DNA of 64,000 nucleotides, taken from the NCBI GenBank assembly GCA_016783505.1, contig JADHWK010000005.1:1764-65763 (forward strand), read 5' to 3'. The notes below the pieces were generated by a model. That model searched no databases, had not been told where the DNA came from, and saw only the letters and a program-made list of their open reading frames with translations. Shown in pieces: positions 9,776 to 51,067 of the stretch; the stretch's first letter is position 1; every line of letters begins with the position of its first letter. This DNA comes from Candidatus Zhuqueibacterota bacterium (GTDB lineage Bacteria; BS750m-G25). The position numbers and the translations under genes were made by a program.

Positions 9776-10156
9776 GGGGTGTTTTGTCCAATCTAATTTA
9801 TCAGTCGGGAGCCTGACCGATTGGATTTCTAAAGAGAAGTTTAAGATGGTAATTGATTGCCATCCGATTGAAAAGACAACCACTATTAGTTTGAACTAAC
9901 ATCCGAAATAAAACGGATTTATGTTCTTTGGGCAGGTGTCCGACTGAGGTGTCATGAGTTTTTAATTTACCGGCAACCGTTATAGATATAGTTGATTTAT
10001 TGCCATTCCTGCCTCGCAAAAAGGGTCATTCCTGTCCCGCATCAAGTGCGGGATAAACTTCAGCAGGAATCCAAAACAAAGAAGAAAATGGATTCCTCCC
10101 GACAGGCCGTGACGGGAATGGCAGGCATGCAGATACTTTTTAAAATAGGCTCCGTT

Positions 10157-12221: not shown

Positions 12222-13472
12222 ATGAAGACGAAGAGATTCCTGACCATTCAATTTATTTTAATCCTTCTTTACCCCGCAGGTTCTTTAGCTTATCTGGGTT
12301 TAAGCGGAAGGGCAATCGGCCTGGCGGGAAGCTACATCGCCATGGCCCGGGGTGCCGATGCCCCTCGCTGGAACCCGGCCAACCTGGGCCTTTCCGATAA
12401 TCCCGAGTATAGCTATAAATTCCTATCGTTTGGACTATATCTTGGAAACAACTCATTTTCCACTTCGCTATATAACTCATATTTTACTACTGGGGATTCG
12501 TTGACGTACCAGGACAAGCTTGACATTATGGATAATATCAGTAAGGATGGTTTGATCCTCAACCTAAATACCCGCCTAGACATTTTTAATTTTTCGGCGG
12601 GACGGTTTGCCTTTTCACTGAGCGGGGTTGAGGCGTTCAAATTATCTTTTGCCAAAGAATATTTAAGCATTGCCCTTCTGGGAAACGTGCCGGAGCGGGA
12701 CTATCGCTTTGAGACCACCGGCGGGGCGGGCTGGACCGGGCTTCAGGCCACCTTCTCCTACGCCTGGCCGCTAAGACTGCGGCTTTTCCGGGAATTTGCG
12801 GTAGGGGGGAACTTAAGCTATTTTCGGGGATTCTATTACGCTGATGCCATGGATACTAAGGGCCATTTTATTGTGCTTCCTGACTCATCCATCTTTAATA
12901 CCGAGGTGAATCTTTACACAGCAACCGGTGGAGATGGGATTTCGGTAGATCTAGGGATGGCTGGTGTGGTTAATGACCGCTGGGCGGTGGGACTTGTCCT
13001 CTTTAATGTTTTTGGTAGGGTGATCTGGGATAGTAACGTCCGAAAAATTGAGGAAGTTGTCTTTTTGAATACTAATCTTGCCAGGCCGCTGGAGGACATA
13101 TACGGTCTGGAAGAATCCTCAAGGAAGATTTCATATACCACCTCCAAGTTCCCGGTTCTGTTACGGGCCGGAGTCAGGTATGTGGCTTCTGAGACCACGG
13201 TTATCGCTGGAGACATTGAGGAGGGGTTTTCCACCCTGCCCGGAGTCACCTACATCCCCCGGTTCTCGTGCGGGGTGGACTACCAGTGGCAGTCCTGGCT
13301 TCCCCTGCGGGTAGGGGGATCTATCGGTGGATTGGAGGGATTTGAATTAGCTTTTGGCTTTGGGCTGAAGCTGCCCCGTTTTGTCTTCGATTTCGGCATC
13401 GCCGGGATTGGGGGGGTGGGCAACGGAGCCCAGGGGATCAAATTGGGAATAGATCTGGTGAGTTCAATGTAA
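12222..13472 (+). CDS. FadL-like / PorV-PorQ-like outer-membrane beta-barrel protein
   Basis: Signal peptide, then GLSGRAIGLAGSYIAMARGADAPRWNPANLGL (N-terminal G.G.R..G.GGA..A..D..A..WNPA.L motif, shared with ORFs at 32805 and 34078). Alternating amphipathic strands run to the C-terminus. Confidence 0.45.
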   Translation: MKTKRFLTIQFILILLYPAGSLAYLGLSGRAIGLAGSYIAMARGADAPRWNPANLGLSDNPEYSYKFLSFGLYLGNNSFSTSLYNSYFTTGDSLTYQDKLDIMDNISKDGLILNLNTRLDIFNFSAGRFAFSLSGVEAFKLSFAKEYLSIALLGNVPERDYRFETTGGAGWTGLQATFSYAWPLRLRLFREFAVGGNLSYFRGFYYADAMDTKGHFIVLPDSSIFNTEVNLYTATGGDGISVDLGMAGVVNDRWAVGLVLFNVFGRVIWDSNVRKIEEVVFLNTNLARPLEDIYGLEESSRKISYTTSKFPVLLRAGVRYVASETTVIAGDIEEGFSTLPGVTYIPRFSCGVDYQWQSWLPLRVGGSIGGLEGFELAFGFGLKLPRFVFDFGIAGIGGVGNGAQGIKLGIDLVSSM

Positions 13473-13644: not shown

Positions 13645-14673
13645 ATGAAGAGGTTAATCGTAATCGCCATCGTTTCTTTGGCCAGTATCTTCCTGTTATT
13701 ATCTATTTTATTTGGCCAAAAGGAAAAGCAGGTTGTATCAGCAGACCAACTAAAAATTGTAGCTATGAACAAATTAAGTAATATTCCTCTCCGTGCGAAG
13801 TTATTTGATTTAGAAAATTGGGCTTCTGAAGAAAGTGAAGGTAGATTTAAAGAAAAACTGATTGTAAAAACCAGTACAGATAATCAAAGCAAATGTATTC
13901 ATACAGATGATGGAATCTATAATTTACGATGGTCGCCTGACGGCAAGAAACTGGCGTTTTGCAGTCGAAACCGACAAAGCAGATTATATGGCTTATATAT
14001 ATACGATGCCGAAAAAAAGGATCTGTCAGAGATTATTCTGAAAGATGTTGGTTTTGTATTCGGTTCTTGGTCCCCGGATGGCAAAAAAATAGTCTATCGA
14101 CAAGGTTCACACATAAGTGAGTTTAAAATATTTATCTGCAATTATGATGGTTCGGACGAAAAATTTCTTACCGAAGGCTATAATCCTGTTTGGTCTCCCT
14201 CCGGGAAATACATTGCTTTTGTTAAACCTAGTTCCATAACACTGCCTTATCGTAGCTGGGAGGACCGCATTTGGATAATCAGACCGGATGGAACAGGTAA
14301 GAAACGGTTAGAGGGACCGAAAGGGCAAACGGAGCTTATCTGGTCACCGACTGATGATATATTGATTTGTGGATATTCTGGTCTCTATAATCTAAATCAA
14401 GATAGATATTATAAGTTTGATATACCGGGTGATGATTTTGCCTGGTCTCCTGATGGGAGCAAGATAATTTTTGAAGTTCCCGAATTAGCTGACGTTCAAG
14501 AGGGAGTGTTATCGGATATTGATTTATGGATAATGAATTCCGACGGCAGCGGTCTTCATAATTTAACATACAGTGATGGCATCTACGAATCAAATCCACA
14601 GTTTGTTTCTAATAATGAAATAGTGGCTATCGTAGGTGGTAAATTGACATTAATTAAACTCGGAATGAAATAA
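13645..14673 (+). CDS. PD40/TolB-like beta-propeller repeat protein with N-terminal membrane anchor
   Basis: Five WSPDG-type repeats (RWSPDGKKLAF, SWSPDGKKIVY, VWSPSGKYIAF, IWSPTDD, AWSPDGSKIIF). GC content is markedly lower than the flanks. Confidence 0.65.
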   Translation: MKRLIVIAIVSLASIFLLLSILFGQKEKQVVSADQLKIVAMNKLSNIPLRAKLFDLENWASEESEGRFKEKLIVKTSTDNQSKCIHTDDGIYNLRWSPDGKKLAFCSRNRQSRLYGLYIYDAEKKDLSEIILKDVGFVFGSWSPDGKKIVYRQGSHISEFKIFICNYDGSDEKFLTEGYNPVWSPSGKYIAFVKPSSITLPYRSWEDRIWIIRPDGTGKKRLEGPKGQTELIWSPTDDILICGYSGLYNLNQDRYYKFDIPGDDFAWSPDGSKIIFEVPELADVQEGVLSDIDLWIMNSDGSGLHNLTYSDGIYESNPQFVSNNEIVAIVGGKLTLIKLGMK

Positions 14674-17783: not shown

Positions 17784-20700
17784 ATGGAATTTGGAACTTC
17801 AGTGTGTAATTTAAGAAAAAGGAACAGATCGAAACCGGCGGTGGGCGTTGGCCTTGTCTTTTCGATCTTTTTTTTGTTAACCTTCGGCATTCCTTCCCCG
17901 GCTTCCCCGATGGTGGGATTGAAATACACCCCCCCCAATGAGGTTATTATCTCTCCCTTTCTACCCCATCCTTACCCCGGATTTAGCCCCAACGGCGATG
18001 TCCCCCTCTTTCAAAACAACCTTTCCAATCTCAAACATTCGGTAGAGATTGACTCATTAGGGGGGTGCATAACCTGCCGGGAGATGCTGTTTGGGGAGGA
18101 TTTTCGTCTCCCCATGTTTTACCGTTTTGAGGATTATCTGAGCCTGAAAACTCGGGCTGATATTCAGGAAAAATGGCGGCAGGAGACCCTGGTCGGTCTG
18201 AAGGAAACCGGGGATACTGGGGGTGGGGGGGGCATCAAGATTGACATCCCCTTCAAGATTAAGAGCCGCGCCTTCCAGCGGGTTTTCGGCGGCTCCCGGG
18301 TGGGCCTCAGGGTGTCCGGAAATATCAATATCAACGGGGGCCTGAGGCGCGACAAACGGAGTGAGGTAATCACCGCTACCAACCGTCAGTCTAACTATAA
18401 CTTCAAGATTGACCAGACCCAGCAGTTCACCATTGAGGGAAAGGTAGGGGACAAGGTCTCCGTGTTCGTGGATCAGGACTCAGAGAGGATGTTTGAGTTT
18501 GAGAATAACATCCGGCTGAAATATACCGGGGAGGAGGATGAGATAATTCAGTCCATTCAGGCGGGAAACATAGGGCTGTCGCTGCCCTCAACCCGGTTTG
18601 TGTCCTTCAGCGGCCACCACTCGGGTCTGTTCGGCTTGAAGTCGGAGATGAAGCTGGGGGCCCTGAACGTGACCGCCATCGCCAGCCTGGAGAAGGGGGA
18701 GAAGAAAAAACTCGAGGTGACGGGAGGGGCCCAGGAAACCACAGATGACATCCGGGATTATGAATACCGAAAAGGTTATTATTTTTTCTTGGATAATGAC
18801 TACCGGGAAAACTATAGATACTTCAATGAGGCCCGAGAGCACTACAGCGTCGGATTGGATAAAGTTATTCAAGACATCGAGGTCTATAAATCGAACGACA
18901 ATTTTGATCTGGAAATCGGGTCTGTGGAAAGTTGGGCCTGCTGGGAACTTCCAGATTCTCCTGACAAATACGGGGATTTCATCGACACTTTGACTAGCAG
19001 TCGGGAGCATCAAAGGGGTTATTTCATACGTTTGGAACCTGGAAAAGACTATTATGTAGACAATAACTTGGGTCTTATCCAGCTGGAGATATCCTTGAGG
19101 GAAAGGAGCAATGAAATTCTGGGGGTAGCCTATCAGACTGCGGAAGGTACTTATGGGGATCTGGTGGTACCTCAAAATCGTAATATGTTGTTAAAATTGA
19201 TTCGACCCCGAACACCTAACCCTACAGATAGCACTTGGAATTTAGCCTGGCGGAATGTATATTATCTGGGGGCTACTAATATCGAAAAAGATGGGTTTGA
19301 TCTGAAAATCTATTATGATTTATCAGGGGCCGACGATGCGGAGACGGACACGATTCTCACGGAAACAGGCGAGACAGAGGTGCAATCCTATCTCACCATC
19401 TTCGGTCTGGATACCAAGAACGAGCAGGGGATTGACGAACCAGACACCGAAATAGACGATTATCCCTCTATTATTAACTGGGCCCGGGGGGAGTTGATAT
19501 TCCCCGATCTCACGCCGTTTGAACCTTCCGGATACTATATTGAAGGTGAATTGATCATCACCCCCCTTGATTCTTCCCAGCGAGCGACAGAGATGTATCA
19601 TAGTATTAATCAAACGGATATTAACCGGGACACCAAATTTTATGTCAGGGTTAAATACCAGAATCGGAGCGACACCTATAATCTGGGCTGGAACGTGCTC
19701 GAGGGCTCCGAGGAGGTGCTGCTGAACGGGACGAAGCTTAACCGGGGGACGGATTACGTCATTGACTACATGTCCGGCAGCCTTACCATGTTGAACGAGG
19801 CGGCCACCGCTCCAAACGCTGACCTAGAGATCCTGTATGAAAGTGGTTCGGTGTTCCAGTTGGATAAGAAAACGCTTTTGGGCGGCCGGGCTGAATACCG
19901 CTTCTTGGAGGATTCCTTCCTGGGGATGACGGCTCTTTATATGAATGAGACCCCCATTGAGGAGAGAGTGCGGGTGGGCAATGAACCCCTACGCAACTTT
20001 GTCTGGGGTCTGAACGGAGTAATGAGGTTTAAGCCGGAATTTCTGACCAGGGCGGTGGATTTTCTCCCCCTGATTCGCACCGAGGAACCCTCGGCTTTCA
20101 ACGTCGAGGGGGAGATCGCCCAGGTTCTTCCCGATCCCAACCCCATGCACCCCTACATTAAGAGCGATAGGGACGGGGCGGCGATCGTGGACGATTTCGA
20201 GGGGGCCCGCAAGACCACCCCCCTGGGGGTGATGCGCCGCCAGTGGAGCCTGTGCAGTAGCCCGGGGGGGAATTATACGGAGTCGAAACGATGGCGGGAA
20301 TTTATCTGGTATAATCCCTTTCAACAGGTGCCCATCAAAGAGATATGGCCTAACCGGCCGGTGAACACCCGGGTGGCGAACAACGTCCATGTGCTGAACC
20401 TCGGCTTCATCAGCGAAAAGCTGCATCAGGTTAAGGACCAACACTCTTGGGCGGGGGTGATGCGAGCCCTTTCCTCTGGATATGCGGACCAGACGGACAG
20501 CCGGTATATCGAGATGTGGATCAAAGGGGAACAGGGTCGCATCCATGTTGACATCGGGAAGATCAGCGAGGATGTGATCCCCAACGGGAGATTGGATACT
20601 GAAGATATTCCTTTCCCGGGGCGGGTGACCGGGAACGGCCTTTTGGATGAAGGGGAGGACGTAGGGCTGGACGGAATGGCGGGCACTGACCCGGGTGATT

Positions 20701-23700
20701 TCTGGGACATCAACGGGAATGGAATCCAGGACCCGGGCGAGCCCCCCTCCATGGACGATTGGGATTACCAGAGCCGCAGCTTTGACTACGACCACATCAA
20801 CGGGATTGAGGGCAACCAGAACGATGTGGGGGGACGCTTTCCGGATACCGAGGACTTAAACCGCAACGGCAGCGTGGACCTGGCCAGCGATTTCTTCCGG
20901 TATTCCTTCACGCTGGGGGACCAATCCTATATCGTCGGGGAGGGGGGACCCGAAGGGGCACCCCAAGAGAAAAAATGGCACCTTTACCGGATTCCTCTGG
21001 AGGAACCCCAATCAGTGGTGGGGTGCCCCGAAGTGACCATGATCGAATACGCCCGGCTGTGGGTATCCGATTTTGAGAAGGACGGTGATATCAGCATCGC
21101 TACCTTTGACATCGTGGGGAACGACTGGAGGGTGGCTGACAGCACCTCGGCCGATTATGTGGAGGTAGCGGTCATTAACAATCATGAGAATCCCCAATAC
21201 GACCCCAGGGAAATCGGGGTGGCCGGTGAGTTGGATCGGATAACCGAGCTGGCGTCCAAAGAGCAATCACTGGTTTTAAAGGTCAAACGTCTCCCCCCCG
21301 GGGAAGCGGGGATGGTGGAGAAGGTGTTTGGCTTTGGCGGACGGAAGCTGAACTTCACCGAATACCGGATCCTCAAGATGTTCGTCCACGGTGGGGGGGT
21401 GGGGGTCCATCCGGGTGATTTTGACCTCTGGGATTACGATCTGGACCTGTTTGTCCGCTTCGGGGCCGATGAGAACAACTATTATGAATTCAAAGAGAAG
21501 GTTTGGCCCGGTTGGCATTTGAACAACGAAATGGTGATTGATTTTGCCGACCTGAACGAGATCAAGCTAAAAATGAGAAGTGACCCTACCCAGAACTTTG
21601 CGGTCTTCCCGGAGACCGTAGGGGAGGAAACCTTCTATGACACCCTGCGTATCGTGGGAAAACCCTCGCTGACGGAGATAAAGCTGTTCGTCCTCGGGCT
21701 AACCAATAAGGGCGAGGATGAAATTAATGAAAATGAAGGGGATATTGTGGAGGTCTGGTTCAACGAGCTTCGGCTGACGGATGTGAAGAAGGATCGGGGC
21801 TGGGCCTACCGGGCCCGGGCCGACCTGAAGCTGGCCGACCTGGCGAATTTTAACATCGAGGTGAACCATAAGGACGATGATTTTCACAACCTGTCCAGCC
21901 GGGTGGGCGGGGGCCGCAACGAGAACCGGCTGACCATGAATAGTGGAATAAGCCTGGACCGAATGCTGCCCCCCAGCCTGGGACTGCGGATCCCGGTGAA
22001 CCTTTCTTATACGGAGAGCAACGCCTTCCCCAAATATTTTCCCGGCAGCGACATTGAGGTGAACCAGCTAGAAGTTCCCGATTCCATCCGCACCAAGAAG
22101 CTGCAGCGGGGGATCACCCTTTCTCTTTCCAGAACCAGCCAGTCCCCACATTGGTTTAGCAAATACACCATAGACAAAACCTCCCTCAGCGCCAATTATA
22201 ACAACAGTCGTTCTTCTAACCCCACGGTTGCCTTCGACCGCACCGAGGCAAGTGGGGGTAGTATCAATTATGGACTGACATTCAGCCGGGACCATTCCCT
22301 GACCCCCTTTGGATTTCTGGGAGAAGTTCCCTTGGTCAAGAAGATCAGTCAGACCAAGTTTTATTATTCCCCTACCAAGCTAAACCTGGGCCTTTCGGCA
22401 TCGGCCAATACCGGTTGCCGACAGACCCGCAGCCGGGTGACATCATTTTCTAAAGCCTTTTTCATGACCCAGAAATTTTCCACTGGCTACCGTCCCACAG
22501 ATAGGCTCTCCTTTGATTTCAGTCGCACCACTAAACGGGATCTGCTGACCCAGGGGGAGCAGCCGGTTTTGAGCGGGGAATGGGAGAATCCTACCCGGTT
22601 ATCCCAGCTTTTAGGTCGGGCCGGCCAGCCTATCCTGGAGGGGAGGTTCGGCGATGCTACTGACATCTCCCAGAACGTGACTGGAAGCTTCAATACCCCC
22701 ACCCCTGATTGGTTGAGCAATGATTGGAACTACTCTACGAATTATCATTGGTCCCATAATATTCAATCAAACCGCCAATCAGCTTCCAACCAGAACACTC
22801 TGTCCACCTCGGCGGCCTTTAAGTTTAACCGACTTATGCAGAAGTTCAAACGCTCCCAGCCTCCCGGGCAGCCACCGAAGCGAGGGGGTATTCCCCTGCC
22901 CCCGAAGAGGGGGGAGGATCAGGAGGAAGAGGAGCCCCAGGGACAAGGTCCGCCCCCGGGTCAAGAAGAAGGAAAGAAACAAAAGCCCCCATCCTTGCTG
23001 GATGGCTTAAGGTTTTTAAGTGAGAAGATGGGGGATATCAGGTATGAATGGAGCCAAAGCCGACAGTTGAATAACCCGGCCATCCAAGGGACCCCGGGAT
23101 GGAACTATCAACTTGGGCTGGTGGACCCGTCCAATCCCGATATTGAGATTGACTCTGCCTACGTAACGGTTCCCAGTTGGTCCCAGGTGGACAACCACGG
23201 GGTGCGCACCGCCCTCAACCTGACCAAAAATATATCTTCAAACCTCCAGTATAAGCTAAAGAATTCCCAGAACCACGGCACCACGGTCACCGGGGAGCTG
23301 TCCCACAGCAGCTTTTACTATTTTAAAAAAGGTAAGACCAGTATTCAGGACTTCCCCTTTTTCGAATGGTCGCTGCGCTGGGGGGGATTGGAGAAGACCC
23401 CGCTGTTCTCCAAATTAACCACTAGCGTTTCCCTGGATCACTCCTTTACGGGGAACAAGGCAGAAAAGTGGAAGGAGATCCCCGGCGGTGACCGGGAGAT
23501 CACTAACGTCAACTATACCAAAGGTTTCCAGCCGTTGGTGGGGCTGAACATTATGTGGAAGAAGGGGATTTCCACCAACCTCCGGTTGAACCAATCGGAA
23601 ACGGTGGGGGACGTGCGCACCAGGGGGGAGAAGTCCCGCACCCGGCGGAGTTCACTCCAGCTTTCGGCCAGCTACTCCCTCACCAAAGGGGTCCGGATCC

Positions 23701-23993
23701 CCCTTTCCTTCTGGCCCTTTAAGAACCGACGATTCAAAAACAAGACGGATTTTTCCTTGACCGGGAATTGGTCCCAGGAGACCAGCGAGAGAAACACCGA
23801 TCCTAAAGCCCCGTTTTACGAGGTGGACAGCAGCGAGAGCTGGTCCCTGATGTCCAAGATAAACTACTCCTTCACCAACAAGGTTACCGGGGGGGTCTTC
23901 TACGAATTCGGGAAAAATAAACGGAAGGCATGGGGGGAATCATCCTACCAAGAACTGGGTCTGGATGTCCGCATCGTTATCCGGGGAGGATAA
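17784..23993 (+). CDS. Giant outer-membrane protein (2069 aa), candidate SprA/Sov-like T9SS translocon
   Basis: N-terminal signal peptide and beta-barrel-like amphipathic segments to the C-terminus. Pro/Gly/Glu-rich low-complexity insert at about 22840-23000. The size and the T9SS-related neighbourhood support the call. The SprA family assignment is not verified by motif. Confidence 0.4.
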   Translation: MEFGTSVCNLRKRNRSKPAVGVGLVFSIFFLLTFGIPSPASPMVGLKYTPPNEVIISPFLPHPYPGFSPNGDVPLFQNNLSNLKHSVEIDSLGGCITCREMLFGEDFRLPMFYRFEDYLSLKTRADIQEKWRQETLVGLKETGDTGGGGGIKIDIPFKIKSRAFQRVFGGSRVGLRVSGNININGGLRRDKRSEVITATNRQSNYNFKIDQTQQFTIEGKVGDKVSVFVDQDSERMFEFENNIRLKYTGEEDEIIQSIQAGNIGLSLPSTRFVSFSGHHSGLFGLKSEMKLGALNVTAIASLEKGEKKKLEVTGGAQETTDDIRDYEYRKGYYFFLDNDYRENYRYFNEAREHYSVGLDKVIQDIEVYKSNDNFDLEIGSVESWACWELPDSPDKYGDFIDTLTSSREHQRGYFIRLEPGKDYYVDNNLGLIQLEISLRERSNEILGVAYQTAEGTYGDLVVPQNRNMLLKLIRPRTPNPTDSTWNLAWRNVYYLGATNIEKDGFDLKIYYDLSGADDAETDTILTETGETEVQSYLTIFGLDTKNEQGIDEPDTEIDDYPSIINWARGELIFPDLTPFEPSGYYIEGELIITPLDSSQRATEMYHSINQTDINRDTKFYVRVKYQNRSDTYNLGWNVLEGSEEVLLNGTKLNRGTDYVIDYMSGSLTMLNEAATAPNADLEILYESGSVFQLDKKTLLGGRAEYRFLEDSFLGMTALYMNETPIEERVRVGNEPLRNFVWGLNGVMRFKPEFLTRAVDFLPLIRTEEPSAFNVEGEIAQVLPDPNPMHPYIKSDRDGAAIVDDFEGARKTTPLGVMRRQWSLCSSPGGNYTESKRWREFIWYNPFQQVPIKEIWPNRPVNTRVANNVHVLNLGFISEKLHQVKDQHSWAGVMRALSSGYADQTDSRYIEMWIKGEQGRIHVDIGKISEDVIPNGRLDTEDIPFPGRVTGNGLLDEGEDVGLDGMAGTDPGDFWDINGNGIQDPGEPPSMDDWDYQSRSFDYDHINGIEGNQNDVGGRFPDTEDLNRNGSVDLASDFFRYSFTLGDQSYIVGEGGPEGAPQEKKWHLYRIPLEEPQSVVGCPEVTMIEYARLWVSDFEKDGDISIATFDIVGNDWRVADSTSADYVEVAVINNHENPQYDPREIGVAGELDRITELASKEQSLVLKVKRLPPGEAGMVEKVFGFGGRKLNFTEYRILKMFVHGGGVGVHPGDFDLWDYDLDLFVRFGADENNYYEFKEKVWPGWHLNNEMVIDFADLNEIKLKMRSDPTQNFAVFPETVGEETFYDTLRIVGKPSLTEIKLFVLGLTNKGEDEINENEGDIVEVWFNELRLTDVKKDRGWAYRARADLKLADLANFNIEVNHKDDDFHNLSSRVGGGRNENRLTMNSGISLDRMLPPSLGLRIPVNLSYTESNAFPKYFPGSDIEVNQLEVPDSIRTKKLQRGITLSLSRTSQSPHWFSKYTIDKTSLSANYNNSRSSNPTVAFDRTEASGGSINYGLTFSRDHSLTPFGFLGEVPLVKKISQTKFYYSPTKLNLGLSASANTGCRQTRSRVTSFSKAFFMTQKFSTGYRPTDRLSFDFSRTTKRDLLTQGEQPVLSGEWENPTRLSQLLGRAGQPILEGRFGDATDISQNVTGSFNTPTPDWLSNDWNYSTNYHWSHNIQSNRQSASNQNTLSTSAAFKFNRLMQKFKRSQPPGQPPKRGGIPLPPKRGEDQEEEEPQGQGPPPGQEEGKKQKPPSLLDGLRFLSEKMGDIRYEWSQSRQLNNPAIQGTPGWNYQLGLVDPSNPDIEIDSAYVTVPSWSQVDNHGVRTALNLTKNISSNLQYKLKNSQNHGTTVTGELSHSSFYYFKKGKTSIQDFPFFEWSLRWGGLEKTPLFSKLTTSVSLDHSFTGNKAEKWKEIPGGDREITNVNYTKGFQPLVGLNIMWKKGISTNLRLNQSETVGDVRTRGEKSRTRRSSLQLSASYSLTKGVRIPLSFWPFKNRRFKNKTDFSLTGNWSQETSERNTDPKAPFYEVDSSESWSLMSKINYSFTNKVTGGVFYEFGKNKRKAWGESSYQELGLDVRIVIRGG

Positions 23994-44716: not shown

Positions 44717-45289
44717 ATGGACATTCGTCAATTTTTTTTCCAATATCGCAGCTTTACGCCGATTCCATTAATCCTGCTTTTGTTCTATCTGGCACAGCCG
44801 AAAATTTATCCTTTTGTATTCGGTCTGCTTTTGGCCCTTGTCGGGGAGGGGCTTCGGTGGTGGGCGGTGGCCCATGCGGGCGGGGAGACCCGAACCCGCC
44901 AGGTGGGTGCCGGGGAATTGGTAACCAGCGGCCCCTTTGCCCATGTACGGAACCCCCTTTACCTTGCAAATCTATTCATCATTACCGGATTTGTCCTCAT
45001 GGCCGGCGGGGGTCTTCCCTGGATGCTGGGGGTGGGCTGGGCCTTCTGGGCGGTGCAATATTCCCTCATCATCTCCTTAGAAGAGGAAACCCTGGACAAA
45101 CTCTTCGGGGATACCTACCGCCGATACAGAAACAAAGTTCCCAGGTTCTTGCCTTTGTTAAAAGGTCAGACCCCAGAAGGGAGGACGACCCTTCCCCTAA
45201 GGAAAGTCCTGCGGTCGGAGCGTAGTACGCTTTTAGGACTTTTATTGCTGACGGGCGGCATCATTTTACGGGGTGCTCTTTTTGGGTAA
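44717..45289 (+). CDS. Isoprenylcysteine carboxyl methyltransferase (ICMT)/phospholipid methyltransferase family membrane protein
   Basis: LVTSGPFAHVRNPLYLANL matches the family G.Y...RHP.Y.G motif. Multi-TM. The start is placed at MDIRQF; the track start at 44627 covers a 20-nt repeat copy. Confidence 0.55.
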   Translation: MDIRQFFFQYRSFTPIPLILLLFYLAQPKIYPFVFGLLLALVGEGLRWWAVAHAGGETRTRQVGAGELVTSGPFAHVRNPLYLANLFIITGFVLMAGGGLPWMLGVGWAFWAVQYSLIISLEEETLDKLFGDTYRRYRNKVPRFLPLLKGQTPEGRTTLPLRKVLRSERSTLLGLLLLTGGIILRGALFG

Positions 45290-45293
45290 TGGG

Positions 45294-46418
45294 ATGGTCA
45301 AGAGAATATTAATGGTTGCCGGGGAGCCCTCGGGAGACCTGCATGGTTCGGGGTTGGTTCGGGAGCTGAAGCGGCGATCACCAAACCTTAATCTCTACGG
45401 CATCGGCGGGGACCAGATGGCCGCCGCCGGGTTTGAGAACCTCTATCACATTGATCAGCTCTCCCTGCTGGGGTTTACGGAAGTGGTCAGACGGCTGCCT
45501 TTCGTCAACCAGGTCCTTCGGCAGCTCGGCAGGCTCCTGAAATCCCGACGGCCCGACTTGGTGGTTCTCATTGATTTTCCCGGCTTCAACCTGCGGTTGG
45601 CCAGGATGGCCAAGGGCCTGGGGGTGCCGGTTCTCTACTACATCAGCCCCCAAGTGTGGGCCTGGGCCCGGGAACGGATATGGAAGATAGCCCGCTGGGT
45701 GGATCGGATGGCCGTTATTTTGCCTTTCGAGGAGAAGTTATTTCGTCAGGCCGGAATAAACGCTCGATTTGTGGGCCATCCCCTGTTGGATGGTCAGGGC
45801 TCCCAAATGACCCATTCGGAGTTTTGCCTTGCCTACGACCTGGATCCCAACCGAAGGACAATTGCCCTATTGCCGGGAAGCCGGTCCACCGAAATTCTTA
45901 AGCTGTTTCCTGTTATGATAGGGGCAACAGAACGTATCCGGGGAATCTTAGGGAATATTCAGGTGACCGTGGGGGTGGCCTCTACCGTTAATCAGCGGGA
46001 TCTGGAGCGAATGGTTCCCCCAGACGCCTGGGTGCGTTTGGTGCCCGATGCCATCCAGGACGTGTTGAAGCACGCCGAAATAGCTATCGTTGCCTCGGGG
46101 ACGGCGACACTGGAGGCCGCCATCCTGGGGGTCCCCATGGTCATCGTATACCGTGTTTCCCCCCTTTCCTATCTCATCGGCAGGCTGCTGGTGAGCACAG
46201 ATTACATCGGGCTGGTGAACTTAGTGGCCGGTCGAGAGGTAGTTCCCGAGCTCATTCAGGGGGCGGCTACGGCCGAGAATATTGCGGCTACGGCGATTCG
46301 AATTATTCGGGATTCCACATATCGCCAATCCATTCTGAAGGATTTAAGGATGGTGCGGGAGCGGCTGGGGAAGCCGGGAGCCACCCGCCGGGTGGCCGAT
46401 ATGGTGTTTGAATTTTAA
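45294..46418 (+). CDS. lpxB: Lipid-A-disaccharide synthase
   Basis: MVKRILMVAGEPSGDLHGSGLVRELK... and the GT19 family profile throughout. Confidence 0.85.
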   Translation: MVKRILMVAGEPSGDLHGSGLVRELKRRSPNLNLYGIGGDQMAAAGFENLYHIDQLSLLGFTEVVRRLPFVNQVLRQLGRLLKSRRPDLVVLIDFPGFNLRLARMAKGLGVPVLYYISPQVWAWARERIWKIARWVDRMAVILPFEEKLFRQAGINARFVGHPLLDGQGSQMTHSEFCLAYDLDPNRRTIALLPGSRSTEILKLFPVMIGATERIRGILGNIQVTVGVASTVNQRDLERMVPPDAWVRLVPDAIQDVLKHAEIAIVASGTATLEAAILGVPMVIVYRVSPLSYLIGRLLVSTDYIGLVNLVAGREVVPELIQGAATAENIAATAIRIIRDSTYRQSILKDLRMVRERLGKPGATRRVADMVFEF

Positions 46419-46613
46419 ATGAACTTTTAGCTATGCTCCTTTTAGATTCTGCGGGTCATCTGCCATTATTTTTAATTTGACAGGATTGATTGTTTTTATT
46501 CTTGTGCCGACTCGTCGGCATGATGGTTTAGTTAGTAAATAAAATTAAATGATCTAACAATATAAAACTAGAATTTTTGAGAATTTTACTAATCAGCTGA
46601 GAGAGTCTCCATT

Positions 46614-47099
46614 ATGTACCCAATAAATGAAATTGAAATTGCTGCAAATGAATTTGTTGAGTTACGGCGAAAAGTACATCATGAGATAGCTAAAAAGTTA
46701 GATCAAGGATCATTCGAAAATGGAACTACTTTAATCTATAAAGGAAATTTTATGCGTATAGAATTAACTATCAAGGATGATACCCAAAAGAGTACACTTC
46801 ATAGCTATGGGACTTTATCGCCGAATGCGCGTTACTTTCTAAAGGCCTTTGCCAAGGGAATTTCAACACCTTTCAGACTTGAGATAGACAATAAATGGAA
46901 TACTCCTCATATTAACAGTTGTTGTTCACAAGATAACCATCGATCCATTCCGAATTGGGGAACAAGCAACATTAGTTCTATTGGATCGACTGTTACCGGT
47001 GTTGTTCTTGGTGATTGTTTGGTATTTGATTTAATGAAGCGTCATTTGAAATACGGCGGTTTTGGAACAACAACGGATTGTACCCTACACCATAGTTAA
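46614..47099 (+). CDS. Hypothetical protein in AT-rich islet (161 aa), no recognisable domain
   Basis: ORF only. Low GC (about 35%) against about 52% flanks. Cys-containing C-terminal half. Confidence 0.3.
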   Translation: MYPINEIEIAANEFVELRRKVHHEIAKKLDQGSFENGTTLIYKGNFMRIELTIKDDTQKSTLHSYGTLSPNARYFLKAFAKGISTPFRLEIDNKWNTPHINSCCSQDNHRSIPNWGTSNISSIGSTVTGVVLGDCLVFDLMKRHLKYGGFGTTTDCTLHHS

Positions 47100-47116
47100 G
47101 GATATAGGTAATCTGA

Positions 47117-47496
47117 TGGCAAGAAGACGTACATGTGGTGAGGAATTGGTTGAGCAAACGACAAGTGCTTGCGGAAGAGAATGTAGTAAAAGTTGCTCTA
47201 AAGGATGTATTGTCTCCTTTGTACCAATTTTGCTTTCAAATCTGAGGTTGTTCTTATACAGTATCGTAAACTTTTCATCGCTCAAAAGCGTGCTTATTGA
47301 AATGATTCATCATTATCAAACAGATGTTTCTCCTTACCTAAATACTTGCTGTCTATTTGAACCTTCATGCTCAAACTACGCAATCCAAACATTTCGGAAT
47401 CATGGTTTATTGATGGCATTACTGAAAGTGTCCTTTCGTATTGTGAGGTGCAACGCAATGGTTGCCCATTTCTTTCAGTTAACGATTTATAGTTAG
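47117..47496 (+). CDS. YidD-like (haemolytic-domain, membrane protein insertion efficiency factor family) protein with Cys-rich N-terminal extension
   Basis: IEMIHHYQTDVSPYLNTCCLFEPSCSNYAIQTFRNHGLLMALLKVSFRIVRCN matches the YidD core (YQ..SP.....CRF.PSCS.YA..A....G...G..L...RI.RC.P). It is preceded by a 60-aa extension with 7 Cys. Low GC. Confidence 0.5.
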
Positions 47497-47756
47497 CCTA
47501 GAATTTTTACTTCAAATAATTAGGAAGTCTTAAGCTGTACCGAATTATTTACCATAAGTTGAAGAAGTTGAAGGAAATTCCATAGGAATTATTAAAATGT
47601 GTATTTTTCAGTGCAAGTAATGGATCATAATATGGACTGCATTTCTATAAGGTTTGTTTGGAATACTGTCAGCTTCTTTAGGCAATTAACTAACACGCCT
47701 GACCCGAATAGTGTGACTGTATGATCAAGCTTTTTTAATAACTTATTACCTAAAAA

Positions 47757-48440
47757 TTGGGACCAAAGAAGAACATACTTTCTTGGTTAGCGGTCCATTT
47801 CGGGTGGCTCATAATTCTTTTATTAGGGGCGACCTTACGGATCAAGTTTGTGGGCAGGCAGCATTATCTGACGCTTAAGAAGAAGAAAAAGCCCTTTGTC
47901 ATTACCCTTTGGCACGGGAGGATTCTGCTGCCCATTTACGTTCACCGGGGGGAGGGCATCCGGGGCATGGCCAGCCTGAGTCAGGACGGTCGGATGGTCG
48001 CTCAGACCATCCTTAAATTAGGGTATAGGATTGCCTGGGGGTCCAGCTCCCGAAGGGGAAAGGAGGCTCTTCATGAACTTGCCGCTGCTTTAAAGCGGGG
48101 TGAGGTAGGCGCCTTAATACCCGATGGTCCCCGGGGCCCCCGACACAGACTGAAGATGGGCGCCATTGTGCTCTCTTTAAAGACCGGAGCCTTTCTGCTC
48201 CCCCTGACCTACGCCGCCACCCGCCGGACGGTCTTCCGTTCCTGGGACCGCTTTTACCTCCCATGGCCCAGCTCTCGATGTGTAATTATGTACGGGGAGC
48301 CCATCTGGGTCAGTCCGGACCTGTCTGACGATGCTCTGGAGGCCTTTCGTAAACAGGTTGAGGAAAGAATGATAGCTCTGGAACGTGAAGCTGATGAATT
48401 TATTCAGAACTACAAAAATAGCAAAGGCCTGGTGAAATGA
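47757..48440 (+). CDS. DUF374-family protein (lysophospholipid acyltransferase-like) commonly linked to lpxK/waaA
   Basis: Family-typical N-terminal TM and conserved WHGR..L, D.PRGP-like segments (LWHGRILLP, IPDGPRGPRH). It overlaps the lpxK start by 4 nt. Confidence 0.5.
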   Translation: MGPKKNILSWLAVHFGWLIILLLGATLRIKFVGRQHYLTLKKKKKPFVITLWHGRILLPIYVHRGEGIRGMASLSQDGRMVAQTILKLGYRIAWGSSSRRGKEALHELAAALKRGEVGALIPDGPRGPRHRLKMGAIVLSLKTGAFLLPLTYAATRRTVFRSWDRFYLPWPSSRCVIMYGEPIWVSPDLSDDALEAFRKQVEERMIALEREADEFIQNYKNSKGLVK

Positions 48441-49477
48441 AATTGAACCCCTTTGTCAGTCTGTTGATGGTTCCTTTCTCTTTCCTTTATGGGACAGCGG
48501 TGGCTCTTCGAAACTGGCTCTACAACCGGGGGATTAAGGTCTCCCACCGGTTGGACTGCCGGGTCATCAGCGTGGGTAATCTGAGCGTTGGGGGCACAGG
48601 GAAGACCCCTATGGTGGAGTGCTTTGCCCGGCGGTTGCACGGGGATGGCCGGGGAGTGGCTATCCTCAGCCGGGGATACCGGGGTAAAGGCAAGGGGACG
48701 GTCATCGTCTCCGATGGGGTGAACCTGCTGGTGGATGACCGGTATGCCGGTGACGAGCCCTATCTTCTGGCCTCCCGCCTGCGGTCGGTGCCCATCATCG
48801 TGAACCGGGATCGGGTTAAGGGGGCAGAAGAAGCCCTTCATCGTTTCCATTCTAAATACCTGATCCTTGACGACGGGTTCCAATACCGCCGACTCCAGCG
48901 GGACCTGGATGTGGTTCTAGTTGATTTTCAATCCTCCCCCCAGAGGCTTCTACCTGCTGGTCCCTTAAGGGAGCCCTGGAGAAACCTCAGGCGGGCTGAC
49001 CTCATTTTCCTGACCAAATGCCCCCTGCCCGGGGGCAGCAACTGGGAGCTGGTAGCCGGGCAGAAGGACTTCCTTCGCCAGTTTACGGAGGCCCCTATTG
49101 TAGCCTGCCGTCACCACCCGGTGAAATTGGTTGATGTCAAGACCAGGGAGGATGTGGGGCTTAAGATTCTTCACAATCGCAAGGTGGTGGCCTTCGCTGG
49201 AATTGCCAATCCGGCCTCCTTCAGGCTGACCCTGCTGGATGAAAAGTCCAAGGTGGTGAAATTCTTCCGCTTTCCCGACCATTATCGGTATGGGACCAAG
49301 GATATAAAACGCATTTTTTCCGTTAGCAGCGAGCTTGAGGGAGATCTGGTGGTGACCACGGAGAAGGACCGGGTGCGGCTTCCCCGGGAATTCGACATAC
49401 CCATCCCCCTCTATTTTCTAGTCATAGAGATCGAGATATTGGAAGAGTTCGATGTCTTAAAAGCGTTGAAATGGTAA
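48437..49477 (+). CDS. lpxK: Tetraacyldisaccharide 4'-kinase
   Basis: [16 protein letters not shown] is the P-loop. The rest fits the LpxK profile. Confidence 0.85.
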
Positions 49478-49480
49478 AAA

Positions 49481-51067
49481 ATGGAAATAGAAAGTGATTT
49501 CTTGGTCATAGGAAGTGGCATTGCCGGGCTGTCCTTTGCCCTAAAGGCGGCCCGTTTCGGTCGGGTAAATTTGGTTACCAAGAAGGATAACACCGAATCC
49601 AACACCAACTACGCCCAGGGGGGGATCGCCGTCGTGGTGTCCCCTGAGGACAGTTTCCAGCGCCACGTTGAGGATACCCTTGAGGCCGGAGCCGGTCTCT
49701 GCCACCCCGATGCGGTGGAGATGCTGGTCCGGGAGGGGCCCTGCGGGGTTCGGGAATTGATGGACTGGGGAGTCAGGTTCAGTCTGAGAAAGGCGGGGGT
49801 CTTCGACTTAGGCCGGGAGGGGGGACACTCGGTCAAGCGCATTGTCCACGCCGCTGACCTCACCGGCCGCGAGGTGGAGCGGGCCCTGGTGGCCGCCGCC
49901 AAGGCCAACCCCAACATCACCATCTTCGAAAACCATCAAGCCGTGGATCTGCTGACCGAGCACCATCTAAAGGACAAGAAGCAAGATGGTATTCACTGCT
50001 GGGGGGCTTATGTGCTGGACGAGGGCCGCGAGGTTGTGTTTACCTTTAAGTCTATGGTGACATTTCTGGCCACCGGAGGGGTGGGGCAGGTGTATCTGCA
50101 CACCACCAATCCGGGGATCGCCACCGGGGACGGGATCGCCATGGCCTACCGGGCCGGAGCCAGTGTGGCTAACCTGGAGTTTACCCAGTTTCACCCCACC
50201 ACCCTCTACCATCCCGATGCCAATTCCTTCCTCATCTCCGAACGCCTGCGGGGATATGGGGCGGTGCTCAAAACCAAGGACGGCAGGACGTTTATGGAGA
50301 ACTACCATCCCCAGGGATGCCTGGCCCCCCGGGATGTTGTGGCCAGGGCCATAGACAACGAACTGAAAAAGAGGGGTGAGGATTACGTGCTGTTAGACGC
50401 CACCCACCTGGACAAGGAGGGTCTAAGATCCCATTTTCCCACCATCTATCAAAAATGTCTTTCTTATAATTTGGATGTAACGGAAGAGCCCATTCCGGTG
50501 GTGCCCGCCGCCCACTACATCTGCGGGGGTGTGGTGACCGACTTGGATGGCAGAACTTCTATCGAAGGGCTTTTTGCCGGGGGGGAAGTGGCCTGTACCG
50601 GGGTGCACGGGGCCAACCGGCTGGCCTCGAACTCTCTTTTAGAGGCGGTGGTCTTTTCCGACCGGGCGGTGAAGGGTACGGTAAAATACTGGAAGGAACA
50701 CAAGGGCAAATTGCCATTAATCCCCACCTGGAGCGATGAGGGAACCTTTGACCCTGAGGAATGGGTGTTAATCTCCCATGACAAGCAGGAGATCCAGCGG
50801 CTGATGTGGGACTACGTGGGCATCGTGCGGGCCACCCATAGATTGAAACGGGCCCAGGAGAGAATTCAGTTAATCGCCAAGGAAGTTGAGGATTTCTATC
50901 GAAAGACCAGGGTCACCGAGGGGTTAATTGAACTGCGGAACATCACCACCGTGGCCCTCCTGATCATTGAATCGGCCATGCGCCGCAAAGAGAGCCGGGG
51001 ATTGCACTACATTCTCGATTATCCGAATACCGATGATAAATACTGGAAGAAAGATACTATCCTGTAA
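49481..51067 (+). CDS. nadB: L-aspartate oxidase
   Basis: The FAD-binding N-terminus DFLVIGSGIAGLSFAL, the QGGIA motif, RHYILDYPN... and a length of 528 aa. Confidence 0.9.
   Translation: MEIESDFLVIGSGIAGLSFALKAARFGRVNLVTKKDNTESNTNYAQGGIAVVVSPEDSFQRHVEDTLEAGAGLCHPDAVEMLVREGPCGVRELMDWGVRFSLRKAGVFDLGREGGHSVKRIVHAADLTGREVERALVAAAKANPNITIFENHQAVDLLTEHHLKDKKQDGIHCWGAYVLDEGREVVFTFKSMVTFLATGGVGQVYLHTTNPGIATGDGIAMAYRAGASVANLEFTQFHPTTLYHPDANSFLISERLRGYGAVLKTKDGRTFMENYHPQGCLAPRDVVARAIDNELKKRGEDYVLLDATHLDKEGLRSHFPTIYQKCLSYNLDVTEEPIPVVPAAHYICGGVVTDLDGRTSIEGLFAGGEVACTGVHGANRLASNSLLEAVVFSDRAVKGTVKYWKEHKGKLPLIPTWSDEGTFDPEEWVLISHDKQEIQRLMWDYVGIVRATHRLKRAQERIQLIAKEVEDFYRKTRVTEGLIELRNITTVALLIIESAMRRKESRGLHYILDYPNTDDKYWKKDTIL

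What the first reader, a model, noticed from the sequence alone, without database searches (positions are those of the whole stretch)
46430..47760. AT-rich 1.3-kb islet between lpxB and the DUF374-lpxK-nadB block, encoding a YidD-like protein with a Cys-rich N-terminal extension plus an orphan ORF
GC content drops to about 35% for about 1.3 kb inside an otherwise syntenic lipid A gene block, which suggests horizontal acquisition.
The second ORF contains a convincing YidD haemolytic-domain core (YQ..SP....CLFEPSCSNYA...HG...A....RI.RCN). Unusually, it is not next to rnpA/yidC, and it carries a 60-aa N-terminal extension with seven Cys (CGEELVEQTTSACGRECSKSCSKGC).
The upstream 161-aa ORF has no recognisable domain. 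The pair may be an uncharacterised two-gene membrane-associated module.
Basis: partly seen in the sequence, partly recalled or inferred. Interest (0 to 1): 0.55.

Follow-up and report, generated by a model that had tools for sequence, protein, structure and literature searches.

The report
Foreign islet carrying long-form YidD
A 1.3-kb AT-rich stretch of probably foreign DNA sits inside the lipid A gene cluster of an uncultured KSB1 bacterium; it carries an orphan gene and a somewhat degraded copy of a rare, undescribed long version of the small membrane protein YidD, which elsewhere occurs as a single gene, often next to phage-defence genes.

Summary
Window 46419-47756 has 35.0% GC against 55-58% in the flanks, the lowest value in the 64-kb window. 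The second ORF is a significant YidD match (PF01809, 62.6 bits, cut-off 27).

- The extension has five Cys, not seven.
- ORF1 has no homolog among 5.8 billion proteins and is absent from every other locus with a related YidD, so a conserved two-gene module is not supported.

The new result is that ORF2 (ATG 47116, 126 aa) belongs to a sharply separated, rare long-form YidD subfamily of 23 clusters, all from metagenomes. Members share a basic N-terminus, a GC-x2-GC-x2-GC cysteine helix, an extra hydrophobic helix, a distinctive CLFEPSCSNYA core and an I-x-D-x-P end.

Only this gene is shared between loci. It is AT-rich everywhere (36-44% GC) and never lies beside rnpA/yidC. In 4 of about 10 loci it lies beside defence or candidate-defence genes (HerA, type IV restriction enzyme, PDC-S02, PDC-S15).

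The window copy has a stop two codons early and deviates at 9 of 36 conserved positions, which suggests relaxed constraint.

Horizontal origin is supported by composition and by lpxB-DUF374 adjacency in distant relatives. It could not be tested in close relatives. Function is inferred only.

The parts
46419..47756 (.). AT-rich islet (1,338 bp, 35.0% GC) filling the lpxB-DUF374 spacer
   Evidence: Composition profiles. The same-length window scan gives the lowest value in the 64-kb window. No tRNA, flanking repeat or Rfam match.
46502..46523 (+). Hairpin downstream of lpxB, terminator-like with a weak T tract
   Evidence: Consensus scan only. The number of such sites is not above the shuffle expectation.
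46614..47099 (+). ORF1, a 161-aa orphan with no detectable family; probably a real or recently real coding sequence
   Evidence: Only a self hit. No Pfam, NCBIfam, PHROGs, PADLOC or PDB match. An ORF this long arose in 0.05% of shuffles of the islet. The AF2 single-sequence model has pLDDT 36 and is uninformative. A C/T polymorphism at 46620 (P3S) separates the assemblies.
47116..47496 (+). Long-form YidD gene (126 aa, stop included), 16 nt after the ORF1 stop
   Evidence: PF01809 62.6 bits and TIGR00278 62.9 bits. It is a member of the 23-cluster long-form subfamily. The NCBI product is MBL7074065.1.
47116..47208 (+). N-terminal module, residues 1-31: basic MARRR tail and a cysteine helix with C19, C23, C27 and C31 spaced i/i+4
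   Evidence: In alignment A2, C27 and C31 are at least 90% conserved and C23 about 80%. AF2 predicts a helix at 10-26 with low confidence, pLDDT 55-59.
47209..47268 (+). Extra hydrophobic helix, residues 32-51, a predicted membrane anchor
   Evidence: The Kyte-Doolittle 19-mer mean is 1.75 here and 0.9-2.25 across the subfamily. AF2 predicts a helix at 31-51 with pLDDT about 80.
47287..47463 (+). YidD core, residues 58-116: YQ..SP....CLFEPSCSNYA...HG......R..RCN
   Evidence: Pfam profile positions 2-60 of 67. All 14 invariant subfamily columns are kept.
47494..47499 (+). TAG stop followed in frame by CCT (Pro). The protein ends TIYS*P where relatives end I-x-D-[LFI]-P, an apparent premature stop that removes the near-invariant terminal Pro
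   Evidence: Extended translation and alignment A2.
45273..46418 (+). lpxB, the upstream flank, intact to its C-terminus
   Evidence: PF02684 at 5.7e-101. Relatives align through residues 380-381.
47757..48440 (+). DUF374 gene, the downstream flank, followed by lpxK (48437-49477) and a nadB-like gene (49481-51067)
   Evidence: PF04028 and PF02606. Gene calls of L001.

Best explanation
The 1.34-kb AT-rich segment is most likely foreign DNA that landed cleanly in the short spacer between lpxB and the DUF374-lpxK-nadB genes of a candidate division KSB1 bacterium.

It carries two unrelated cargo genes on the same strand, probably co-transcribed (16-nt gap):
- ORF1, a strain-specific orphan.
- A member of a rare long form of YidD.

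The long form adds three elements to the YidD core: a basic N-terminal tail, a helix with cysteines every fourth residue (GC-x2-GC-x2-GC), and an extra hydrophobic helix. Its own core signature is CLFEPSCSNYA, and it ends I-x-D-x-P instead of HP..GG.DPVP.

Shown:
- The long form moves as a single gene between unrelated neighbourhoods.
- It is AT-rich wherever it is found.
- It is never beside rnpA or yidC.
- It often lies beside defence or candidate-defence genes.

Inferred:
- The basic tail and cysteine helix stay in the cytoplasm.
- The extra helix and the first YidD helix form a membrane-embedded hairpin that tethers the YidD core to the inner face of the membrane more firmly than in canonical YidD.
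- There it acts on the membrane or on insertion of membrane proteins, as proposed for E. coli YidD (Yu et al. 2011, cited through).
- The cysteine face may bind a metal or mediate oligomerisation.

The copy in this window has lost its conserved C-terminal end and deviates at many conserved positions. It is probably under relaxed constraint and may be on its way to decay.
For: Composition:
- Islet GC is 0.350 against a window mean of 0.497 (sd 0.038), the lowest value in the window.
- GC3 is 0.28 for ORF1 and 0.35 for ORF2, against a mean of 0.58.

Synteny:
- L005, L008, L027 and L046 keep lpxB directly followed by DUF374, 39-178 bp apart. None of the 80 LpxB loci has ORF1 or this YidD.

Subfamily:
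- In a full phmmer search of 1.84 billion representatives, 1,705 YidD proteins reach E <= 0.001. Apart from the query's own entry, only five align across the N-terminal extension.
- A profile search gives 23 clusters at 126-192 bits, then a drop to 89 bits or less for ordinary 69-91-aa YidD proteins.
- The architecture is shared in alignment A2.
- A core-only HMM still ranks all long forms (97-112 bits) above all others (95 bits or less).

Mobility and context:
- Only the YidD gene is shared between loci.
- The genes have 0.36-0.44 GC, mostly below the contig GC.
- Neighbours include HerA (3e-152), mREase_IV (6.7e-64), PDC-S02/YhcG (1.2e-138) and PDC-S15/FRG (2.2e-52).
- COG0759/K08998 (YidD) was independently ranked among the most frequently transferred gene groups (PMC6287321).
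- Short YidD paralogs occur on plasmids.

Structure:
- The AF2 model with a 65-sequence alignment has pLDDT 77, with helices at 10-26, 31-51 and 54-75 plus the core.
- The N-terminal region carries a net positive charge in nearly all members.

Decay signs:
- 9 deviations at 36 conserved columns, against a median of 2. The protein ends TIYS*P.
- The gene caller used for the ENA and Logan assemblies did not call ORF2.
Against: - No close relative lacking the islet could be examined. The best LpxB relative is 49% identical.
- There is no integrase, transposase, tRNA, direct repeat or attC-like site at the borders, so the insertion mechanism is unknown.
- The window has other moderately AT-rich genes, for example 13645-14673 at 0.374 GC. 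GC heterogeneity is therefore not unique to this spot.
- The hydrophobic helix is only borderline for a transmembrane span and contains charged residues in several members.
- The cysteine helix is modelled with low confidence.
- No experiment or solved structure exists for any YidD, so the functional steps are inference.
- Defence-gene adjacency rests on 4 of about 10 short metagenomic contigs and is absent in this window.
- All invariant core residues are intact, so the window copy may still be functional.
Confidence: 0.62

Rival explanations
1. Dead relic. The islet is a decaying remnant of a larger mobile or defence island, and neither ORF now makes a functional protein.
For: - ORF2 has an early stop that removes the near-invariant terminal Pro, and shows 9 of 36 conserved-column deviations against a median of 2.
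- ORF2 was not called by the gene caller in two assemblies.
- ORF1 is an orphan with a non-synonymous polymorphism between near-identical assemblies.
- There are 195 bp and 260 bp of apparently empty AT-rich DNA on either side.
Against: - Both reading frames are open at lengths that are improbable in shuffled islet DNA: 0.05% for at least 161 aa and 1% for at least 126 aa.
- All 14 invariant subfamily residues of ORF2 are kept.
- Only two residues are lost at the C-terminus.
- The tight 16-nt spacing and an AAGGA motif upstream of the ATG look like an expressed pair.
Confidence: 0.22
2. One reading: ORF1 and the YidD-like protein form a conserved, uncharacterised two-gene membrane-associated module.
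For: Same strand, 16-nt gap, same low GC. In other loci the long-form YidD is also usually the downstream gene of a closely spaced same-strand pair, with gaps of about 21-69 nt.
Against: - ORF1 has no homolog anywhere and none in any long-form locus.
- The upstream partners are unrelated to each other: KTSC, a 108-aa protein, DUF4760, a 73-aa two-helix protein, a 59-aa protein, or none.
- ORF1 lacks a hydrophobic segment.
Confidence: 0.06
3. Native gene: this is the genome's own (perhaps only) yidD, relocated. The low GC reflects local mutational or regulatory bias rather than transfer.
For: NCBI annotates it simply as YidD. No other yidD is in the 64-kb window. The rest of the genome could not be inspected. 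The window contains other low-GC genes.
Against: - The protein groups with a 23-cluster subfamily separated from ordinary YidD in both full-length and core-only scores.
- That subfamily sits in unrelated contexts.
- The GC3 drop of 0.23-0.30 against neighbouring genes ends exactly at the flanking gene borders.
- Distant syntenic relatives have no gene at this junction.
Confidence: 0.08
4. Defence-linked effector: the long-form YidD is itself a membrane-acting component of anti-phage or conflict systems, and the window copy is a stray from such an island.
For: Immediate neighbours match PADLOC HerA, mREase_IV, PDC-S02 and PDC-S15 in four loci. DUF3800 and KTSC are nearby. The historical 'haemolytic domain' label of PF01809 comes from my own knowledge.
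Against: - The long form has no PADLOC or PHROGs match.
- It has no conserved partner.
- The other loci have housekeeping or unknown neighbours.
- There are too few loci for an enrichment statistic.
- No defence gene lies next to it in the window.
Confidence: 0.12

Closest known systems
Canonical YidD (PF01809 / TIGR00278 / COG0759), e.g. E. coli YidD of the rnpA-yidD-yidC operon
   Same: The profile match is significant. The YQ..SP motif, the C-x5-CS pair and the R-x3-C cysteine are conserved. It is a small, basic protein predicted to associate with the membrane.
   Different: - It is 126 aa rather than about 70-90 aa, with a 57-aa N-terminal module (basic tail, cysteine helix, extra hydrophobic helix).
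- The core signature is CLFEPSCSNYA rather than CRF.PTCS.Y.
- The C-terminal HP..GG.DPVP is replaced by a longer tail ending I-x-D-x-P, and this copy is truncated there.
- It is not in the rnpA-yidC context.
- It is rare: 23 clusters scoring at least 126 bits, out of 2,917 clusters that reach E <= 1e-8 in the same profile search.
Horizontally mobile YidD paralogs (K08998/COG0759 flagged as highly transferred; plasmid-borne yidD)
   Same: The gene lies outside the canonical operon, in a compositionally foreign setting. YidD was ranked among the most transferable gene groups (PMC6287321). Annotated yidD genes occur on Pseudomonas, Acaryochloris and other plasmids.
   Different: The plasmid and phage-collection matches cover only the core, at most 55% of the query, and lack the N-terminal module. 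The long form was found only in chromosomal or metagenomic contigs.
Other YidD proteins with N-terminal extensions (e.g. P0090 MPSSCSSCSSS..., P0114, and the tandem double-YidD P0010)
   Same: They show that the YidD core tolerates N-terminal additions, some of them Cys-containing.
   Different: Their extensions are not alignable with this one. Only the 23 long-form clusters share the GC-x2-GC-x2-GC plus hydrophobic-helix module.
Small genomic islets or defence-island cargo genes
   Same: Low GC, a patchy distribution, variable neighbours and adjacency to PADLOC defence or candidate-defence genes in several loci.
   Different: There is no integrase, tRNA, repeats or attC at this site. The insertion here is inside a lipid A operon, not a defence island.

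Membership tests
YidD (PF01809 / TIGR00278) | Profile score above the curated cut-off | tested here: met
   PF01809 62.6 bits against 27. TIGR00278 62.9 bits against 40.
YidD (PF01809 / TIGR00278) | Conserved core residues: YQ, SP, C-x5-C-S, R-x3-C | tested here: met
   Y67, Q68, S72, C79, C85, S86, Y88, R108 and C112 are invariant in a 65-sequence alignment that includes ordinary YidD proteins.
YidD (PF01809 / TIGR00278) | C-terminal HP...GG.DP(V)P motif (profile positions 61-67) | tested here: not met
   The match ends at profile position 60 of 67. The protein ends RCNAMVAHFFQLTIYS. The subfamily has I-x-D-x-P instead.
YidD (PF01809 / TIGR00278) | Location in the rnpA-yidD-yidC cluster (typical, not universal) | tested here: not met
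   The neighbours are lpxB and DUF374-lpxK. No YidC or RnpA domain occurs in the called genes about 10 kb either side.
YidD (PF01809 / TIGR00278) | Aids YidC/Sec-dependent membrane protein insertion; peripheral inner-membrane location | not testable with these tools
   Known only for E. coli YidD (Yu et al. 2011, cited in PMC8082313). No structure is solved.
Long-form YidD subfamily (defined here, alignment A2) | Basic N-terminus, then a GC-x2-GC-x2-GC cysteine motif | tested here: met
   MARRR..., with C23, C27 and C31 aligned to the conserved Cys columns.
Long-form YidD subfamily (defined here, alignment A2) | Extra hydrophobic helix between the Cys motif and the YidD core | tested here: met
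   Residues 32-50 have a KD mean of 1.75. AF2 predicts a helix at 31-51.
Long-form YidD subfamily (defined here, alignment A2) | Core signature C[LF]F.PSCSNYA and scores above ordinary YidD proteins | tested here: met
   183 bits against the first six-sequence long-form profile A1, which includes this protein; ordinary YidD proteins score 89 bits or less. 99.3 bits against the core-only HMM built from A2, where others score 95 or less. The protein is part of both training sets.
Long-form YidD subfamily (defined here, alignment A2) | C-terminal I-x-D-[LFI]-P followed by the stop | tested here: not met
   The protein ends I-Y-S-stop with CCT (Pro) next in frame. P0006 also lacks the motif.
Conserved two-gene module (ORF1 + YidD) | Co-occurrence of homologs of both genes in other genomes | tested here: not met
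   ORF1 hits only itself. There is no ORF1-like sequence in 19 related loci. Only the YidD gene is shared.
Horizontally acquired genomic islet | Composition and codon usage deviating from the host | tested here: met
   0.350 GC against 0.497, and GC3 of 0.28/0.35 against 0.58.
Horizontally acquired genomic islet | Absent from the same site in close relatives | not testable with these tools
   No close relative is available: the best LpxB match is 49% identical, and L001 and L002 are the same genome. Distant syntenic relatives have lpxB and DUF374 adjacent.
Horizontally acquired genomic islet | Mobility signatures: integrase, tRNA target, flanking direct repeats | tested here: not met
   No tRNA in the window. 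No convincing flanking repeat. No recombinase among the neighbours.
Integron gene cassette / CALIN | attC site (RYYYAAC ... GTTRRRY with a paired stem) downstream of the ORF | tested here: not met
   The regex and fold scan found nothing downstream of ORF2. Of the eight other loci scanned, one (L087) has a site just downstream of its YidD gene, and L083 and L087 have further sites inside other genes. The test is crude, with no covariance model.

The most novel reading that the evidence does not exclude
The long-form YidD (basic tail, i/i+4 cysteine helix, extra membrane helix, modified YidD core) is a new self-contained mobile membrane module of variable or defence islands. It could be a membrane-perturbing effector. 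It could also be a helper that lets incoming island-encoded membrane proteins insert in a new host, with the cysteine face acting as a metal or redox switch. If so, this would give the first functional handle on why YidD-family genes are among the most frequently transferred genes in prokaryotes.
Probability: 0.12. Interest if true: 0.65.

Novelty: new variant of a known kind. Interest (0 to 1): 0.35.

Why it matters
YidD is nearly universal in bacteria, yet it is poorly understood. It has one functional study, no solved structure, and an unexplained ranking among the most horizontally transferred gene families.

A sharply delimited long form is a concrete variant to test. It has a conserved cysteine helix and an extra membrane helix, it moves as a solo gene, and it often sits beside defence genes.

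For this genome the practical point is smaller. A piece of foreign DNA splits the lpxB / DUF374-lpxK lipid A operon, so the downstream genes must be expressed by read-through or from a promoter inside the islet.

The finding also corrects the idea that the two ORFs form a module.

Tried and rejected
- **Frameshift at the 3' end of ORF2.** The alternative frame (…QRNGCPFLSVNDL*) looked superficially like the family C-terminus. The in-frame reading aligns better through RCNAMV…TI, and the difference is a stop two codons early.
- **Integron cassette.** There are no consistent attC-like sites.
- **Non-coding RNA.** Rfam at E <= 1 gave only two chance-level hits, and there is no tRNA.
- **Flanking repeats or target-site duplication.** Only short chance-level matches were found.
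- **Promoter and terminator scans.** Counts were not above shuffle expectation.
- **Structure of ORF1.** The single-sequence AF2 model has pLDDT 36 and is unusable. The PDB sequence search was empty.
- **Fold search of the ORF2 model.** PDB gave none and BFVD gave nothing significant. The afdb50 library was unavailable.
- **Phage, plasmid and IMG/VR searches.** Only core-only matches to ordinary YidD proteins were found.
- **Metagenome scan with the subfamily alignment.** It returned only 10 loci, mostly short.
- **Close relatives through the genome collection.** None is closer than 49% LpxB identity.
- **Exact-protein look-up of ORF2.** It is not on record.
- **Literature searches for YidD plus defence.** These were swamped by the YIDD polymerase motif. 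Yu et al. 2011 is not held.
Full report
**Source and observation**

The window comes from a candidate division KSB1 metagenome-assembled genome. The ORF2 product is NCBI protein MBL7074065.1.

The GC drop is real. In 300-bp windows GC falls to 0.31-0.40 between about 46350 and 47850, with 0.55-0.58 on both sides. The intergenic span 46419-47756 is 0.350 GC. Same-length windows over the whole 64 kb average 0.497 (sd 0.038). The lowest value outside the islet is 0.386.

Third-position GC is 0.28 for ORF1 and 0.35 for ORF2, against a mean of 0.58 for 46 ORFs. The flanking lpxB, DUF374 and lpxK genes have 0.61-0.68.

They are LpxB, DUF374 and LpxK, followed by an L-aspartate-oxidase-like gene. GFO/IDH/MocA and PEMT/ICMT-like genes lie upstream.

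**The two ORFs**

ORF1 (46614-47099, 161 aa) matches nothing:
- No Pfam, NCBIfam, PHROGs or PADLOC family.
- No PDB sequence.
- Only itself among 5.8 billion clustered proteins.

An ORF this long occurred in 0.05% of 2,000 shuffles of the islet. It is therefore probably a real or recently real coding sequence. The single-sequence AF2 model has pLDDT 36 and says nothing.

ORF2 is a significant YidD. PF01809 gives E 2.9e-17 and 62.6 bits (cut-off 27). TIGR00278 gives 62.9 bits (cut-off 40).

Its start is ATG 47116, which gives 126 aa. This start matches the M-x-R-R-R N-termini of its relatives and the NCBI call. It lies 16 nt after the ORF1 stop.

The extension before the Pfam domain is 57 aa. 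It has five cysteines (C7, C19, C23, C27, C31), not seven.

**A distinct long-form YidD subfamily**

A word-index search found only the protein itself. An exhaustive phmmer search of 1.84 billion representatives found 1,705 YidD proteins at E <= 0.001. Apart from the query's own entry, only five of them (127-137 aa, 32-43% identity) align across the N-terminal extension.

A profile of these retrieved 23 clusters at 126-192 bits. Scores then drop abruptly to 89 bits or less for ordinary 69-91-aa YidD proteins.

The 23 share one architecture:
- A basic N-terminus.
- The motif A-x-K-G-C-x2-G-C-S-R-G-C.
- A hydrophobic segment of about 20 residues.
- F-x-S-x-K.
- A YidD core with the signature C-L-F-E-P-S-C-S-N-Y-A ... 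K-Y-G ... R-x3-C-N.
- A tail ending I-x-D-[LFI]-P.

An HMM of the core alone still ranks every long form (97-112 bits) above every other YidD in hand (95 bits or less). The margin is narrow, and the long forms were the training set.

With a 65-sequence alignment AF2 gives pLDDT 77:
- A low-confidence helix at 10-26, the cysteine helix. The i/i+4 spacing would put the cysteines on one face.
- A helix at 31-51, the hydrophobic segment.
- The YidD helices from 54 onward.

The hydrophobic segment is borderline for a membrane span. Its 19-mer Kyte-Doolittle means are 0.9-2.25, and several members have charged residues in it. The region before it is net basic in nearly all members.

No solved structure matches by sequence or fold.

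**Genomic context of the long form**

Contexts were obtained for about ten independent loci:

| Locus | Arrangement |
|---|---|
| L083 | HerA - KTSC - YidD - DUF3800 - SbcD - SbcC |
| L084 | run of small unknown ORFs - 624 aa - 108 aa - YidD |
| L087 | DUF4760 - YidD - Mrr-type enzyme |
| L089 / L090 | 73-aa two-helix protein - YidD |
| L136 | unknown ORFs - YidD - start of a glycine-cleavage-T-like gene (my reading of its N-terminus; not profile-tested) |
| L137 | YidD with convergent methyltransferases |
| L139 | YhcG/DUF1016 nuclease - 59 aa - YidD |
| L140 | YidD - FRG protein |
| L091 | YidD with no ORF of 50 aa or more adjacent |
| L093 | YidD after a surface-protein-like gene |

None has rnpA or yidC.

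Four loci have an immediate neighbour that matches PADLOC models:
- HerA, 3e-152.
- Type IV methyl-directed restriction enzyme, 6.7e-64.
- PDC-S02, 1.2e-138.
- PDC-S15, 2.2e-52.

The long form itself matches no PADLOC or PHROGs model.

A translated comparison of the islet with all these loci finds only the YidD gene in common. ORF1 is found in none of them.

The long-form genes have 0.36-0.44 GC wherever they occur, mostly below their contigs. Searches of the phage, plasmid and IMG/VR collections find only core-only matches to ordinary YidD proteins.

Ordinary yidD genes are annotated on several plasmids. An independent study ranked COG0759/K08998 (YidD) among the most frequently transferred gene groups, without explanation (PMC6287321).

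**State of the window copy**

All 14 invariant subfamily residues are present. However, the window protein deviates at 9 of 36 columns that are at least 75% conserved. The median is 2. Only P0006, which also lacks the C-terminal motif, is as deviant.

The protein ends T-I-Y-S-stop, and the next in-frame codon is CCT (Pro). Relatives end I-x-D-[LFI]-P. The stop therefore sits where the L/F/I residue should be, and the near-invariant terminal proline is lost.

The gene caller used for the ENA and Logan assemblies skipped ORF2, although it called the relatives.

The two other contigs that carry the islet are the same genome at 99.98-99.99% identity. One of the two differences in 20.5 kb is a non-synonymous change in codon 3 of ORF1. 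With only two differences that is not significant.

**Origin of the islet**

The genome-collection scan with LpxB found no relative above 49% identity. The decisive test, an empty site in close relatives, could not be run.

Four distant relatives keep lpxB followed directly by DUF374, with 39-178 bp between the match ends (L005, L008, L027, L046). L005 also keeps the upstream GFO and PEMT genes and L008 keeps GFO. None of the 80 loci has ORF1 or this YidD. In other relatives the junction holds something else, for example a 279-aa protein of normal GC in L003.

Both flanking genes are full length relative to their homologs, so the extra DNA is cleanly intergenic.

There is no tRNA, recombinase, flanking repeat, Rfam hit or attC-like site. 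The insertion mechanism is therefore unknown.

**Interpretation**

The best-supported reading is that the islet is foreign DNA carrying an orphan gene and a solo long-form YidD gene.

What is shown:
- The compositional anomaly.
- YidD membership.
- The existence and architecture of the long-form subfamily.
- Its context-independence.
- The absence of any conserved partner.
- The derived state of this copy.

What is inferred:
- The horizontal origin at this site.
- The membrane-hairpin topology.
- Any role in membrane protein insertion or membrane perturbation, by analogy with E. coli YidD (Yu et al. 2011, cited).
- Any metal or redox role for the cysteine face.

The rivals are set out separately: a dead relic, a native relocated yidD, a true two-gene module, and a defence effector. 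The two-gene module is the one the data most clearly disfavour.

**Verdict**

This is a real feature with an ordinary likely origin, a small foreign islet. Its cargo is a new variant of a known family, and that variant is more interesting than the islet itself.

Interest is moderate to low (0.35). There is no functional evidence, the local copy looks degraded, and the defence association rests on a handful of short contigs.

Noticed in passing
window 13645-14673 (+): A second compositional outlier: a 342-aa PD40/WD40-like beta-propeller gene with 0.374 GC and GC3 of 0.33. It is the lowest-GC region outside the islet and may be another acquired gene.
   Followed up: partly
window 6166-6636 (+): A 156-aa Polbeta/NTP_transf_2 nucleotidyltransferase with low GC (0.41). 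It resembles the MNT component of HEPN/MNT toxin-antitoxin pairs. The partner was not examined.
   Followed up: no
window 17784-23993 (+): A giant 2,069-aa ORF. Not analysed.
   Followed up: no
window 9992-12217 and 12222-13472 (+): Two large adjacent ORFs (741 and 416 aa) in a GC-poor stretch (about 0.41-0.45), with no Pfam match at E <= 0.001.
   Followed up: no
window 46620: A C/T difference (Pro3Ser in ORF1) between the window and the ENA and Logan assemblies of the same genome. It is one of only two differences in 20.5 kb.
   Followed up: yes
L084 1669-2306: Two tandem paralogous basic ORFs of about 95 aa, both ending FESNR(K/R)KH. They lie in a run of small same-strand unknown ORFs upstream of a 624-aa unknown protein and the long-form YidD. 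This may be a mobile element.
   Followed up: no
P0010 (227 aa): A protein with two complete YidD domains in tandem, separated by a proline-rich linker and a hydrophobic segment.
   Followed up: no
P0090 (110 aa) and P0114 (127 aa): Other YidD proteins with unrelated Cys-containing N-terminal extensions (MPSSCSSCSSS..., MGCNRYRGDDGGC...). Cys-bearing N-terminal additions to YidD may have arisen more than once.
   Followed up: no
P0009 (93 aa): It looks like a long-form member truncated at its N-terminus. It has the CLFEPSCS core and an IIDMP end, and scores 94 bits on the core HMM.
   Followed up: partly
L003 4078-4917: In the closest LpxB relative (49% identity) a 279-aa protein of normal GC sits between lpxB and lpxK in place of DUF374. 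From its sequence I read it as a TPR-like lipoprotein, which was not profile-tested. The lpxB-lpxK junction is therefore variable among relatives.
   Followed up: partly
L141 1126-1401: The closest short YidD (P0008, 91 aa, 89 bits) is also not next to rnpA or yidC. It sits among unknown genes, including three large convergent ORFs with no Pfam or PADLOC match.
   Followed up: no
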